Positions 31,101 to 37,100 of a stretch of 64,000 nt of DNA are shown piece by piece. The first letter of the stretch is position 1. Every line of letters starts with the position of its first letter. The position numbers are program-made. This DNA is from Escherichia coli (lineage in GTDB: Bacteria; Pseudomonadota; Gammaproteobacteria; Enterobacterales; Enterobacteriaceae), in NCBI RefSeq assembly GCF_044647545.1, contig NZ_CP172818.1. One strand, 5' to 3'.

Positions 31101-34100
31101 TCACCATCGCCCGTTCCACCACAGAAGGACTTCCTTTTGCATCGAGAAACGAGATTAACGCCTCGCCGGTCCCCAGTTCCTGGATTGCCTTTTCCGTATC
31201 AAATGCAGGGGTGGGGCGCATGGTTTGCGCCGCAGCTTTTACCGCTTTCTGATCTTTGGGCGTAAAAGCACGCAAAGCGTGTTGAACGCGATTACCGAGC
31301 TGGCCGAGCACATTATCTGGAATATCAGACGGGTTTTGCGAAACGAACCAGACGCCCACGCCTTTTGAGCGAATAAGCCTTATCACCTGCTCAATCTTAT
31401 CCAGCAGTACCTGCGGGGCATCGTTAAATAGCAGATGTGCCTCGTCGAAGAAAAACACCAGTTTTGGTTTCTCCAGATCGCCCGCTTCCGGCAATTGTTC
31501 ATACAACTCTGAAAGCATCCACAGCAGGCTGGCGGCGTACAGTTTCGGCATCTGATAAAGTTTCTCGGCGCTGAGGATATTGATAACGCCTTTACCGTTG
31601 GCATCGGTGCGCATCCAGTCTTTGATATCCAGCATCGGCTCACCAAAGAAGTGTGCTGCGCCTTGCTGTTCCAGCGACAACAGCCCGCGCTGGATGGCAC
31701 CAACCGATGCGCTACTGATATTTCCGTACTGATTCTGGAAGGATTTGGCGTTATCGCCGATGTACTGGGTAATTGCCCGCAGATCTTTAAAGTCGAGCAG
31801 TAACAGCCCCTGATCGTCAGCAATGCGGAAAATGATATCCAGCACGCCAGATTGCACATCGTTGAGATTCAACAGTCGCGCCAGCAACAGCGGTCCCAGA
31901 TCCGAAACCGTCGCCCGCACCGGATGGCCTTTCTCGCCAAAGATATCCCACACCACCACCGGATTGGCATGCGGTTGCCAATCATTGACGCCGATATTTT
32001 TAAGCCTTGCGAGCAGTTTTTCCGACGCCGTTCCTGCCTGCGCGATACCGGTCAGATCGCCTTTCACATCAGCCATAAACACCGGCACGCCGATTTCCGA
32101 CAATGACTCTGCCAGTTTTTGCAGCGTAACGGTTTTACCCGTCCCCGTTGCGCCGGTAATCAGCCCGTGACGGTTCGCCATTCCCGGCAGTAAAAACAGT
32201 TCTGTGTCCGGCGTGCGGGCAATTAACAGGGGTTCGCTCATGAGATTTCCTCCAGTTTCCTGCCTGGGAAAGGGGCGCAGGCACCCGGCAAAGGGATCAG
32301 AAGTCGGCTTTCAGGACCACTCGGTAGCGCGCTTTACCATCGCGTACATGCTGAATGGCGTCGTTAATTTTCGACATCGGGAACAATTCGGTAGTCGGCG
32401 CAACCTTGCTGCGGGCGGCAAAGCGCATCAGCTTACGCAACTCATAAGGCGTGCCGGTAGCAGAACCAGAGACGCTGCGGTCGCCCGCAATTAACGTAAA
32501 GGCCGGAACAGACAGCGGCGTGAGAACCGCACCGACCGTATGGAAATTACCGCCGTACGTCAGCGCTTCAAAATAAGGCTGCCAGTCGAGGCTGACGTTG
32601 ACGGTGTTGATAATGAGATCAAACTGCCCCGCCAGTGCTTTCAGTGCCTGCGGATCGCGGCTATTCACCACTTTATCGGCACCCATCGCCAGTACTTCCT
32701 GCTCTTTCGCCGGATTCGAACTAAAGGCTGTCACCTCGCATCCCATTGCGTGCAGAAGTTTTATAGCGATATGCCCCAGCCCGCCAATACCAATTACCCC
32801 AACGCGGCTGGTGGCAGTGATATGGTGCATTAACAGTGGTTTGAAGACCGTGATACCACCGCACAACAGCGGCCCGGCGGACTCGATATCAATATTTTCT
32901 GGCAGTGGAATCACCCATTGCCAGTCCGCACGCAACTTCTCGGCAAAGCCACCGCGATTCATAATCGTCGGCACCGCACCTTGCTCACAGTTGATCTGAT
33001 TACCGCTAATACAGGCATCGCAATGCCCGCAGCTACGCGCCGTCCAGCCAATCCCGACACGCTGACCGACCTGCAAACCTTTATCCTGCGCGGCGCTCCC
33101 GAGCGCCACCACGCGACCAATCACCTCATGCCCGGCAACCAGCGGATATTGTGAAAATCCCCATTCGTTATCGATCATCGACAGATCGGAATGGCAGATC
33201 CCGCAGTAATCCACCTGCACTTCAACATCTTGTGGCTTCAGTTCACCGGGATCGTACTCATAAACTTCCAGTTCGCCGCCTGCTTCTTTTGCGGCATAGC
33301 TTTTTATCATCGACATTTTTTGGTCCTTCTCTGGTGTTGTCTGGGAAGTGTAGAGCATGGCAGGGCGGGGTGCCTGGAGTGTGACAAAGGTTACACATCG
33401 CTGTATGCAATGCTGAAAATTTCAGCACTTAGCGAGGTGCGAGCAAGCTGGCGCTTGCATGGTGGCGTGCGACAGGTATAATCCACAACGTTTTCCGCAT
33501 ACCTCTTCAGTGCCGAAGTGGCGAAATCGGTAGACGCAGTTGATTCAAAATCAACCGTAGAAATACGTGCCGGTTCGAGTCCGGCCTTCGGCACCAAAAG
33601 TATGTAAATAGACCTCAACTGAGGTCTTTTTTTATGCCTGAAATCCAGTGTTTATCTATCTTTCCCGCTATATTAACTCTCTCAAGGTCAACCGATATCA
33701 ACGTACATCTACCAACATATGTTGGTACAGATGATGGTATTTCCGGTTCGATAATGCTTGTACCAACAGGGAGGGAATACGCATGGCATTAACAGATATC
33801 AAAGTCAGAGCAGCCAAGCCAACGGATAAGCAATATAAGCTGACTGATGGTGGCGGTATGCATCTGCTTGTCCATCCAAATGGTTCTAAGTACTGGCGTT
33901 TGCAGTACCGTTATGAGGGAAAGCAAAAAATGCTGGCACTTGGGGTTTATCCTGAAATCACACTAGCGGATGCCAGAGTACGTCGTGACGAGGCGCGTAA
34001 GCTGCTTGCGAATGGCGTCGATCCGGGAGACAAAAAGAAAAATGATAAGGTTGAACAGAGTAAAGCACGAACCTTTAAAGAAGTCGCGATTGAGTGGCAT

Positions 34101-37100
34101 GGCACCAATAAAAAGTGGTCTGAAGATCACGCCCATCGTGTGCTAAAAAGTCTTGAAGATAATCTTTTTGCAGCGCTTGGTGAACGTAATATCGCTGAGT
34201 TAAAAACTCGAGCCCCCCCCCCCTCCAGTGTCTCCCCGTGTGGCCGGGACCCCCCCAAGACCCACAGCTGACCGGGGATGACGTCTCCCCGTTCCCGCCA
34301 GTCCCCCTTCCCTCACCGGCCCCCCCGACTCCCCCCCGCCCGCGAACCCACGCCTGCCGCGAAAACAGGATGAACCCCAAAAGCCGTGAAAGACGGCAAA
34401 AAGGACCCCCCCGCCCGGGGGGGGAGTAAGCGCACCGGCCCGGGCGCGGCGCCCCCCGCAACCGGCGGGGGCCGCCCAGCGCCCGGCGGACTCCCTACAC
34501 CACGACGCCCCGGCGCGGGGGCGCCCCGACGCGAACGGGTGCCGCGACGCCAAACGTCCGGCCCCGACCGCGACGAAAACCGCGACCGCCACGAAACGGC
34601 ACACACAGGCGAAACACAGCGGCCGACGCGGCGCGGACGGGAGGGCGGCCCCGCGGCCGCGGGCACGCACGGGGCACCCGCGCCAACGGAACAGACAGGC
34701 CCGCCCCGACCCCCCCGGGGGCGCGGCGCACCGGGCAGAAACCCCCCCCGGGGGCAACCGAACGCGGGCCGGATCGCAGCCGAACAACGCCCCCCCAACC
34801 CCCCCCCCCCCCGGGTGTTCCTTTAACCATCCGCAATGGCCAACGGTTTACAGAGCATAATACGAATAGCCGTAGAGCCAGCCAGTTACGGTGGTCGCGA
34901 TGGTGTGTCCGCCAGAAAATCACCACGAATACCAGAATCGCGGCACTGACCAGAAAATGATAAACAGGAAACACGGGGAGGTTCACTTTGCTTTCTCCTG
35001 TAGTATTTTCTGTAGGTTCTGAACCGGTTCGAGCGGGGTTGTGAGGCTGATGGCAATCCCCGGGCTCTTCCTGCATGTTACACTGGTACTGCAACAGGGG
35101 GCCTTCGCTCCTATGACATTACTCAGTATTTTCACTACTACACCCCATCTGCCATCCATAACAACCGATTCACCCCCTCGGGAGGCGTTGTTGCCCGTCA
35201 CCCGGACAGGCATCGTTATGGACTTCTCTTGTTGCACGATCGATCAATTGTTATGCATGCTGACACCACTACCCCGGTGGGTATGACCGATGCCTTTCTC
35301 ACTCTCTTCCCGGTCATCGTCGGCCTTCCCCGTTATTGTGGCGTGTCGGCACCATCGACGGCATTTCGATGGCTGCTCAGTGTTCACTCACGTTACGGCC
35401 CGCATAACCCATTGACTTCCTGAAGAAGTCGTTTCAGGGAGAGATTCAGCCCTTTTGTTACCTCCTGGACCGCTTCCTGTCCTTCCAGTTGGAGCGAGAG
35501 TTAGTCGGGGCGGACTTTCACCGACGGAAAGATCGTGCATTTCAAGGCACACACAACAATATCTGCGAGCGTGCTATCCGTCCGGTCGTTATGGGACGAA
35601 AGGCCTGGTTGTTCGCTGGTTCACTGATGGCCGGGAACCGAGCGGCACAGATAATGAGCCTTCTGGAAACAGCAGTCTGGAGCCACATGCTTGGCTGACG
35701 GACGTCCTAACGCGTCTGCCCGGAGTGGCCGGAGGAGAGGTTGGCAGAGTTACTGCCTCTTGAGGGCTTTACCTTCTTTGGGTAAGTGATACCTGCCGTC
35801 AGGTGTTTGTGCACCGGGCCATAACCTGCAGTTGGGAATTGAACGCCTGACAACAGGAAATGAGCTAGAGCAGTAAACACGCGGGCTGACAATGGGTCAG
35901 AATATGAGTCTGCCCGGCGTTATTCTTGGGGTCAGTACTTCAGATCCAGCCTCCGGTACCAGACTAGCTAGCCCCTACGCAACCAAATAAATCAACCATC
36001 GTAAGAGTGCAATCGTTCATATACACTGCCGGTGATGGGCGGAAAAATGCGTTAATGTTGAGTTCCTCGAACCCTTACCAATTAAGGGACATAGCCAGAT
36101 ACGCAACTGGCTGATGCAAGCAGTCTGATGTCTTTAGATTCGCTGGCCTGCGGGCATGACAATGTCAAACAGTCAAAGATTGTGGCGTTGACGGTCAGTC
36201 TCGGTGGTCGAAAAAGCTCAGTATTCTCGTTGGCAACCAGATAATTTAACAGTTGATGCTGAAACGAAATAGGCATCTTGGTTCTGTAATGCCAGTCAGT
36301 TAAGCAACTGACTGGCTCTTTTTCGGGGCTGTGGGGTATTTCCAGGGCCTCTCCTTTACCACTCTCGGGAAGGCCCTTTCCCTTCTTGTCGGTAATTTCA
36401 CAAGTTGTCCCATACTTGCAAGATCGCGCATCAGCTCCGGTATACGTCCCGGTGAAGCGCCCTGCAATGTCATCAGCATTCTCATCACCATTCCGCATGA
36501 TTCTGAGAAACTCAGTTGATTCGGCCAGTAACCTTTCAGATGTTCCGCCATTTTAATCATCTGATATCTCACCAGATTATAAGCCAGTAAGACACCCCGC
36601 AGCTCTTGCTCCACAAGCTCCGGTTTTTTACTTCTCAGCGTCAGCCTGCTCAGTTGCATCGTCTGTTTTATCTCCCTGTATCCCAGTTCGATTTCCCAGC
36701 GATGACTGTACAGATCCGCCATTTCTCCTCCGGGGAAGCGCATGGCGTCCGTCATCGACGTCAGCAGATGGCAGACTTTTCCTTTGCGCGTCACGGTCAG
36801 CAGGCGGGCTGTCACTTCATTTCCCAGTCCCGGCCACTTTTTTCGTGCCTGCGGGCTGGTTTTCAGCTTCACCAGATGATCGCCTTTACCCAGTTTTCTG
36901 ATCTCTTCATATTGCGCTCCCTTTCTGAGAGGTATCATCCAGTGGCGGTGTTCTCCCGCCAGGCTCCAGGCATTTAACAGTCCCAGTGAGTAATAACCTT
37001 TATCCATTAACGTCAGAGTGTTATCGCCGGTTTGTTCTATAAGTTGCTCAGCAAGCTCATTTTCGCTGTTCTTCATCGTGCCGAAGGCTGCAGCCGTCAG

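What the first reader, a model, noticed from the sequence alone, without database searches (positions are those of the whole stretch)
33512..34209. leuX-integrated island boundary with a decayed P4-type integrase
A tRNA-Leu(CAA) gene with its terminator is followed within 190 bp by a P4-family integrase N-terminus, the classical signature of a tRNA-targeted island. Only ~142 codons of the integrase remain, so the island is probably immobilised. Everything from here to the window end (IS elements, nanXY, fec, xylonate, sgc) is accessory-type content.
Basis: partly seen in the sequence, partly recalled or inferred. Interest (0 to 1): 0.4.

Follow-up and report, generated by a model that had tools for sequence, protein, structure and literature searches.

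The report
Known leuX island edge, dead integrase

Summary
tRNA-Leu(CAA) lies at 33512-33596 with a terminator at 33610-33634. After a 186-nt spacer, an ORF starts at 33783 and encodes the first 143 codons of a P4-type tyrosine integrase. The fragment keeps the arm-binding domain and half of the central domain. The catalytic domain is gone.

The last 20 nt of leuX equal the phage P4 attP core. Four arm-type repeats sit where P4 has its own. Window 34816-64000 is colinear with K-12 KpLE2 at 99.7% identity and is present in only 12-29% of 5,426 complete E. coli genomes. No leuX 3' repeat (attR) exists in the window or in K-12 for 63 kb downstream.

One addition: window 34213-34815 (603 nt; 78% G+C, 4% T) matches no E. 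coli genome, plasmid or phage. 602 of its 603 bases form an ordered subsequence of IS2, which is IS2 with 55% of its bases dropped (about 89% of C retained, 9% of T). I read it as a technical artefact across an IS2 copy. The underlying deletion junction is the one found in ST131 strains.

Interest is low.

The parts
32297..33316 (-). ahr (yjgB), the core-genome gene on the chromosomal side of leuX
   Evidence: ORF listed. Coordinates were mapped from the ahr annotation in L001 and L006. The segment is 99.9-100% identical to those genomes.
33512..33596 (+). leuX, tRNA-Leu(CAA), intact
   Evidence: ARAGORN. Rfam tRNA 59.4 bits. Identical to K-12 leuX.
33577..33596 (+). attL core: the last 20 nt of leuX, GAGTCCGGCCTTCGGCACCA, identical to the annotated phage P4 attP core
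   Evidence: P4 record X51522, attP core feature 4078-4097. Alignment A1.
33610..33634 (+). leuX intrinsic terminator: 7-bp stem, 4-nt loop, then a T7 run
   Evidence: Terminator scan and inverted repeat I1. The Rho-independent terminator of leuX is described in PMC2811032 (abstract).
33710..33768 (.). Four arm-type repeats TGWTGGTA. Two are direct (33720, 33732) and two inverted (33710, 33761). I infer they are the integrase arm-binding sites of attL.
   Evidence: Four of the six occurrences in the 64-kb window fall within these 59 nt. In alignment A1 they line up with the annotated P4 'attP arm sequence repeats' next to int. Binding was not tested.
33783..34212 (+). N-terminal 143 codons of a P4-type tyrosine integrase (intB orthologue); the catalytic domain is absent
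   Evidence: Pfam. 51% identity to P4 Int. 100% identical to the ST131 pseudogene and 99.5% to intact IAI39 int up to 34212.
34213..34815 (+). Anomalous 603-nt block (C 283, G 186, A 108, T 26): a deletion-only, base-selectively depleted copy of IS2 in + orientation. Probably a sequencing or assembly artefact.
   Evidence: Composition. No match in E. coli genomes, plasmids, phages or genome contigs. Cheap-deletion alignment to IS2 scores 767 against 463+/-45 for controls. The longest common subsequence with IS2 is 602 of 603, against a maximum of 554 in 300 random window segments and 547 in 300 shuffles. Retention is about C 0.89, G 0.48, A 0.32, T 0.09.
34816..34971 (-). Remnant of a phosphoethanolamine transferase gene (yjgX-like). 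The sequence resumes exactly at the right side of the ST131-type deletion junction.
   Evidence: blastn against L001 and L002, junction sequences, annotation in L001.
36285..37710 (-). IS4 (insG), at the same place as in K-12
   Evidence: 448-aa ORF. Colinear with K-12 IS4 at L003 12091-13516.
37711..64000 (.). Island cargo colinear with K-12 KpLE2: nanXY, IS911/IS30/IS600, fecIRABCDE, IS1, yjhUFGHI, and sgcR through sgcC (cut by the window end)
   Evidence: One blastn alignment, window 34816-64000 = K-12 L003 10622-39804, 99.685% identity, read against the K-12 annotation. Differences are confined to IS elements and the 35-36.3 kb debris.

Best explanation
The site is the leuX-proximal (attL) end of the known E. 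coli leuX genomic island, called KpLE2 in K-12 and GI-leuX elsewhere.

A P4-like element once integrated by recombination between its attP core and the identical last 20 nt of leuX (inferred from the architecture). That event rebuilt the tRNA gene and left the arm sites and the int gene immediately downstream.

In this lineage a roughly 1.5-kb deletion removed the integrase from about codon 148 to a neighbouring phosphoethanolamine-transferase remnant. ST131 and related strains carry the same deletion. What survives is an arm-binding stump with no catalytic domain. With no attR repeat either, the island cannot excise on its own (inferred).

The 603 nt at the deletion junction are IS2 sequence that has lost 55% of its bases, with no substitutions or insertions. 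I take this to be a real IS2 copy, or an IS2 insertion present in only part of the sequenced population, that was mis-rendered during sequencing, consensus calling or assembly. I do not take it to be real DNA.
For: - **tRNA, terminator, integrase fragment.**
- **Shared core.** The P4 attP core is 20/20 identical to the leuX 3' end, and arm repeats sit in the equivalent position.
- **Intact orthologue.** It carries all three domains and is 58.8% identical to P4 Int.
- **Junction.** Window 33000-34212 is 100% identical to ST131 strain AR_0086 and resumes at 34816 at exactly the ST131 right junction. ST131 has 16 bp where the window has 603.
- **Cargo.** It is colinear with K-12 KpLE2 at 99.685%.
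- **Variable locus.** Of 5,426 complete genomes, 5,424 match leuX, 2,377 carry this integrase N-terminus, 2,071 carry a full-length int, 625 carry the 35.8-45.8 kb segment and 1,596 carry the 54-64 kb segment.
- **Site still in use.** In strain ampC_0069 a 5.6-kb element flanked by two exact copies of the 25-nt leuX 3' end sits between leuX and the same integrase stump.
- **Block derives from IS2.**
- **Literature.** KpLE2 lies at leuX and carries fec and sgc (PMC3032704). GI-leuX spans about 50 kb from leuX to gntP (PMC4374849). [quoted passage not shown]
Against: - No attR was found, so a single integration event delivering the whole 30+ kb is not demonstrated.
- G+C content ranges from 43% to 58% along the cargo, which suggests several separate acquisitions.
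- I could not see reads or identify the source record, so 'artefact' is an inference from sequence properties only.
- One base of the block does not fit IS2.
- The 16 bp present in ST131 cannot be recognised in the block. A simple IS2 insertion into the ST131-type junction is therefore not proven.
- None of the 5,426 complete genomes has IS2 abutting the integrase at this position.
Confidence: 0.9

Rival explanations
1. Only the first 1-2 kb (attL, arm sites, int) is the relic of a P4-type element. The rest of the 'island' (nanXY, fec, yjh, sgc and onward to fim) was assembled by separate IS-mediated or recombinational gains and differential losses at a hotspot. Under this reading the integrase stump marks a hotspot rather than the boundary of one mobile unit. 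This refines the main explanation and is not exclusive of it.
For: - No attR exists within 63 kb in K-12.
- G+C content is mosaic, 43-58%.
- Sub-segments differ in prevalence: 625 against 1,596 genomes.
- ST131 keeps the yjhI/H/G homologues directly after the debris, without IS4, nanXY or fec.
- The RefSeq K-12 annotation limits 'cryptic prophage PR-Y' to intB alone.
- PMC4374849 argues that different segments were lost in different lineages.
Against: An old attR could have been deleted. PAI II536 shows that 100-kb islands can move as one unit through a leuX-specific P4-like integrase (PMC3202238).
Confidence: 0.4
2. The integrase stump is not just debris. It is a retained arm-binding protein that still binds the four TGWTGGTA sites, for example to influence leuX read-through, to occupy the site, or to modulate integration of newer elements.
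For: The arm-binding domain is complete, with a start codon and an intact upstream region. The fragment is 100% identical at the DNA level between this window and ST131 strains. Its arm sites are intact.
Against: DNA identity among close relatives says nothing about selection. Annotators call it a pseudogene. K-12's copy carries a stop at codon 19. In ampC_0069 a newer element integrated into leuX despite the stump. No expression data were examined.
Confidence: 0.05
3. The 603-nt block is genuine chromosomal DNA: a real, heavily degraded IS2 relic.
For: It sits in otherwise clean sequence, and I could not inspect reads. IS relics are common in this very region.
Against: - Natural decay gives substitutions as well as indels. 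Here 602 of 603 bases are an ordered subsequence of IS2, with no substitutions or insertions.
- The loss is base-selective, with about 89% of C retained and 9% of T.
- The result is 78% G+C with T falling to zero over 200 nt.
- Flanks are 100% identical to relatives.
- Nothing like it occurs in 5,426 E. coli genomes, plasmids or phages.
Confidence: 0.02

Closest known systems
KpLE2 / GI-leuX of E. coli K-12 MG1655 (leuX-intB-IS2K-yjgX ... fec ... sgc ... fim)
   Same: It has the same tRNA, the same spacer and the same integrase family. Gene order and IS elements are identical from IS4 to sgcC, at 99.685% identity over 29 kb.
   Different: K-12 keeps a full-length intB, though with a stop at codon 19, followed by IS2K and a longer yjgX remnant. 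The window lacks 3,516 bp of that stretch. The chromosomal side also differs: there is no idnRTODK between yjgR and ahr, and ahr is 98% identical.
Truncated leuX integrase pseudogene of ST131-type strains (e.g. AR_0086, ampC_0069)
   Same: It is 100% identical from ahr through integrase codon 143, with the identical right-hand deletion junction into the phosphoethanolamine-transferase remnant.
   Different: Those genomes have 16 more integrase bases (atttattagcacctat) where the window has the 603-nt garbled IS2. They also lack IS4, nanXY and fec.
Satellite phage P4 integration at leuX
   Same: The 20-nt core is identical. The int gene lies next to the core with arm repeats between them. The N-terminal fragment is 51% identical to P4 Int and the full orthologue 58.8%.
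   Different: The arm repeat sequence differs: TGWTGGTA against P4's TTGGGGGCAT-type repeats. No P4 replication or regulatory genes are present, and the integrase here is truncated.
PAI II536 of uropathogenic E. coli 536
   Same: It is also a leuX-integrated island with a P4-like integrase that is specific for leuX (PMC3202238).
   Different: PAI II536 has an active integrase and flanking direct repeats, and it excises and transfers. Here the integrase is dead and no attR was found.

Membership tests
P4-type tyrosine integrase | N-terminal arm-type DNA-binding domain (Pfam PF13356, Arm-DNA-bind_3) | tested here: met
   E 8.4e-30, 103 bits, residues 3-87.
P4-type tyrosine integrase | Sequence similarity to phage P4 Int | tested here: met
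   The fragment is 51% identical over 144 aligned positions, E 8e-48. The intact orthologue is 58.8% identical over 97% of its length.
P4-type tyrosine integrase | C-terminal catalytic domain (PF00589) carrying the active-site tyrosine | tested here: not met
   The domain is absent from the window copy. In the intact IAI39 orthologue it spans residues 207-383. The window copy is therefore a gene fragment of a family member, not a functional member.
P4-type tyrosine integrase | Target is the 3' end of a tRNA gene that shares a core with attP | tested here: met
   The P4 attP core of 20 nt equals the last 20 nt of leuX.
P4-type tyrosine integrase | Recombination activity | not testable with these tools
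   This needs an excision or integration assay.
tRNA-linked genomic island (KpLE2 / GI-leuX) | Starts immediately 3' of a tRNA gene, with an integrase gene next to it | tested here: met
   A 186-nt spacer separates leuX from int.
tRNA-linked genomic island (KpLE2 / GI-leuX) | Direct repeat of the tRNA 3' end at the far boundary (attR) | tested here: not met
   There is no repeat in window 33597-64000 or in K-12 from leuX to yjiH (25-mer with up to 3 mismatches, 20-mer up to 4, 16-mer up to 2). The one 16/20 match lies inside fecA and is judged to be chance. The genome beyond the window was not available.
tRNA-linked genomic island (KpLE2 / GI-leuX) | Variable presence among strains of the species | tested here: met
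   625 and 1,596 of 5,426 genomes carry the two 10-kb cargo segments. 2,377 carry this integrase N-terminus next to leuX.
tRNA-linked genomic island (KpLE2 / GI-leuX) | Colinearity with the named K-12 element | tested here: met
   A single 29-kb alignment at 99.685% identity.
IS2 (IS3 family), for the 603-nt block | 1,331-bp element with terminal inverted repeats and insC/insD reading frames | tested here: not met
   The block is 603 nt, with no IS2 ORFs and no ordinary BLAST match. It derives from IS2 sequence (longest common subsequence 602 of 603) but is not an IS2 element as written.

The most novel reading that the evidence does not exclude
The 603-nt block is real DNA: an IS2 copy from which about 9 in 10 T, 2 in 3 A and half the G were removed, with no substitutions, while its flanks stayed untouched. 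That would imply a base-selective deletion process unknown in bacteria. A milder alternative, at roughly 5%, is that the integrase arm-binding stump and its four intact arm sites are kept as a functional DNA-binding module.
Probability: 0.01. Interest if true: 0.9.

Novelty: already known. Interest (0 to 1): 0.1.

Why it matters
leuX is a classic integration hotspot. It is the attachment site of phage P4 and of PAI II536, and from my own knowledge its tRNA affects type 1 fimbriae and virulence. Annotating this boundary correctly is useful but adds no new biology.

The practical value lies in data quality. The window contains a 603-nt stretch that should not be interpreted as sequence. Gene callers produce proline- and glycine-rich phantom ORFs across it, and the true state of the locus (an IS2 copy, or a mixed population) is hidden.

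Tried and rejected
- **Database searches for the block.** E. coli genomes in distant mode, plasmids, phages and an exact 33-mer in genome contigs all found nothing.
- **Base-conversion hypotheses.** I tested whether the block is native sequence with T>C, T>G or A>G miscalls, using relaxed substitution matrices. None scored above shuffles; only the plain matrix gave a lead.
- **What that lead showed.** It turned out to be IS2 with deletions, not substitutions.
- **Chimeric ORF look-ups.** Exact look-ups of three ORFs across the block, intended to find the source contig, found nothing on record.
- **Search for a clean int::IS2 junction.** A composite 2.2-kb query was swamped by the K-12 arrangement. 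A 144-nt junction query found no genome with IS2 at this position.
- **Exact-subsequence tests.** The block is not an exact subsequence of IS2 alone or of IS2 plus the ST131 16-mer; one base is left over. The second IS2 copy from K-12 (IS2A) is identical to IS2K, so it did not resolve that base.
- **attR search.** This led nowhere.
- **Contamination.** Before the IS2 match I considered GC-rich eukaryotic or viral DNA as the source of the block. I rejected it on the longest-common-subsequence result.
- **Two-strain assembly.** I considered a mixed K-12 plus B2-like assembly. In that case the block should contain remnants of all 3.5 kb of the K-12 interval, not of IS2 only.
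Full report
**Observation.**
ARAGORN finds one tRNA gene in the window: tRNA-Leu(CAA) at 33512-33596 on the + strand. Rfam confirms it, and it is identical to K-12 leuX. A hairpin followed by a T7 run lies at 33610-33634. This fits the published Rho-independent terminator of leuX (PMC2811032, abstract seen). ahr (yjgB) lies upstream on the minus strand.

After a 186-nt spacer, an ORF begins at 33783. Its first 143 residues hit Pfam Arm-DNA-bind_3 (E 8e-30) and the first 46 of 96 profile positions of Phage_int_M. They are 51% identical to residues 5-148 of phage P4 Int. The intact orthologue in E. coli IAI39 is 421 aa. It also carries the catalytic Phage_integrase domain at residues 207-383 and is 58.8% identical to P4 Int over 97% of its length. 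Homology ends at window 34212.

**Anatomy of the attachment site.**
The annotated 20-nt attP core of P4, GAGTCCGGCCTTCGGCACCA, is identical to the last 20 nt of leuX at window 33577-33596. Between leuX and int, four copies of TGWTGGTA cluster within 59 nt (33710-33768), two direct and two inverted. The whole 64-kb window holds only six copies. In the alignment with P4 they fall where P4 has its annotated arm repeats. This is the expected attL architecture of a P4-type element. Binding to these sites is inferred, not tested.

**How the integrase was lost.**
Window 33000-34212 is 100% identical to ST131 strain AR_0086. The window resumes at 34816 exactly where ST131 resumes, inside a phosphoethanolamine-transferase (yjgX-like) remnant. 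Compared with IAI39, ST131 has lost about 1.5 kb, from integrase codon ~148 into that remnant. ST131 keeps 16 more integrase bases (atttattagcacctat) at the junction. The window has 603 nt there instead.

**The 603-nt block (34213-34815).**
Its composition is C 283, G 186, A 108, T 26. G+C is about 78%, T is zero over some 200 nt, and it contains many C and G runs. Nothing else in the window looks like it. It has no match in 5,426 complete E. coli genomes even in sensitive mode. It has none in plasmids or phages, and a 33-mer from it is absent from genome contigs.

- **First clue.** A local alignment showed a stretch equal to IS2 with the T's missing.
- **Alignment test.** Aligning with cheap deletions makes the block colinear with IS2 positions 9-1166 in + orientation. 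The score is 767, against 463+/-45 for 22 other K-12 segments (maximum 530) and 451+/-8 for shuffled blocks.
- **Subsequence test.** The longest common subsequence with the 1,331-bp IS2 is 602 of 603 bases. The maximum was 554 for 300 random window segments and 547 for 300 shuffles, and the reverse strand gave 533.
- **What was lost.** The block is IS2 with 55% of its bases deleted, with no substitutions or insertions. Retention is base-selective: about C 0.89, G 0.48, A 0.32, T 0.09. The poly-C runs are what remains when the other bases between C's drop out.

Natural decay does not look like this, and the flanks are perfect. I conclude the block is a technical artefact across an IS2 copy. One possibility (inference only) is a consensus taken over reads that partly contain and partly lack an IS2 insertion. 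No complete genome carries IS2 at this exact position, and I could not find the source record.

**The island.**
Window 34816-64000 aligns in one piece to K-12 MG1655 KpLE2 at 99.685% identity (K-12 locus L003 10622-39804). The gene order is yjgX remnant, yjgZ region, IS4, nanXY, IS911/IS30/IS600, fecEDCBA-RI, IS1, yjhUFGHI and sgcR through sgcC. The differences are confined to IS elements and the 35-36.3 kb debris.

Prevalence among 5,426 complete E. coli genomes:

| Segment | Genomes |
|---|---|
| leuX matched | 5,424 |
| leuX + spacer + integrase N-terminus (33400-34212), at least 80% covered | 2,377 |
| leuX + full-length int, at least 80% covered | 2,071 |
| Window 35800-45800 | 625 |
| Window 54000-64000 | 1,596, with no match at all in 3,744 |

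The content is therefore accessory. G+C content along the cargo runs from 43% to 58%.

The literature already describes all of this. KpLE2 sits at leuX and carries fec and sgc in K-12 and B (PMC3032704). A roughly 50-kb GI-leuX spans leuX to gntP, with lineage-specific losses (PMC4374849). PAI II536 has a leuX-specific P4-like integrase (PMC3202238).

**The far boundary.**
No copy of the leuX 3' end occurs elsewhere in the window or in K-12 from leuX through fim, gntP and uxu to yjiH, which is 63 kb. The only near match is 16/20, inside fecA at window 50794, and I treat it as chance. The island has no recognisable attR and no catalytic integrase, so 'immobilised' is the reasonable inference. 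The missing attR, the mosaic G+C and the unequal prevalence of sub-segments also suggest that much of the cargo was not delivered by the P4-type element in one event. The RefSeq K-12 annotation now restricts 'cryptic prophage PR-Y' to intB alone.

**The site is still in use.**
In strain ampC_0069 the 25-nt leuX 3' end occurs twice, in the tRNA gene and again 5.6 kb downstream. The second copy lies directly in front of the same spacer and integrase stump. A small element encoding a recombinase-family protein lies between the two copies. This is tandem accretion at leuX.

**Verdict.**
The feature is an already-known island boundary with a dead P4-type integrase. The only unexpected thing nearby is a garbled IS2, which is best explained as a data artefact. 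Interest is low.

Noticed in passing
window 34213-34815: A 603-nt block with 78% G+C and almost no T starts right after the finding. 602 of its 603 bases form an ordered subsequence of IS2, meaning IS2 with 55% of its bases dropped. It is probably a sequencing or assembly artefact. It generates phantom Pro/Gly/Arg-rich ORFs on both strands.
   Followed up: yes
window 35388-35527 (-): Rfam group-II-D1D4-4 (group II intron domains 1-4) matches at 66.3 bits against a gathering score of 49, covering the full model. It lies among IS66-type transposase remnants (35489-35698) in the debris between the integrase stump and IS4. The same sequence is in K-12 (the yjgZ region).
   Followed up: no
L006 (strain ampC_0069) 33733-39355: A 5.6-kb element sits between leuX and the same truncated integrase. 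It carries a recombinase-family protein, an HTH protein and hypotheticals, and it is bounded by two exact 25-nt copies of the leuX 3' end. This is tandem accretion at the site.
   Followed up: partly
window 33782 and 33837, compared with K-12 L003 ~6750-6805: K-12's own intB differs from the window by a 1-nt deletion just before the ATG and by AAG>TAG at codon 19. The K-12 copy is full-length but already inactivated at its N-terminus, while the window's N-terminal fragment is open.
   Followed up: partly
window 32241-32297: yjgR and ahr are adjacent. The idnR-idnT-idnO-idnD-idnK cluster that separates them in K-12 (and partly in IAI39) is absent, as it is in ST131-type genomes.
   Followed up: partly
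window 1-36300: The backbone is a mosaic. Positions 19320-36205 are 99.7-100% identical to strain ampC_0069, but 1-18212 are only 98.2% identical to it, and it was the best of 5,426 genomes for window 8400-33300. Positions 18348-19338 are 88-94% identical and lie in a low-G+C segment (41%) around a yjgL-like DNA-binding protein gene. From 36.3 kb onward the sequence is K-12-like.
   Followed up: partly
window 27377-27571 (+): Rfam Ysr276 (Yersinia sRNA 276, antisense type) matches at 184.6 bits. The hit lies inside and antisense to pepA (26618-28129, minus strand).
   Followed up: no
window 50794-50813 (+): A 16/20 match to the att core (GAGACCGGCCAGCGGCAGCA) lies inside fecA. I judged it to be chance because it is in coding sequence, is not at any boundary, and has a mismatch in the terminal CCA.
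   Followed up: yes
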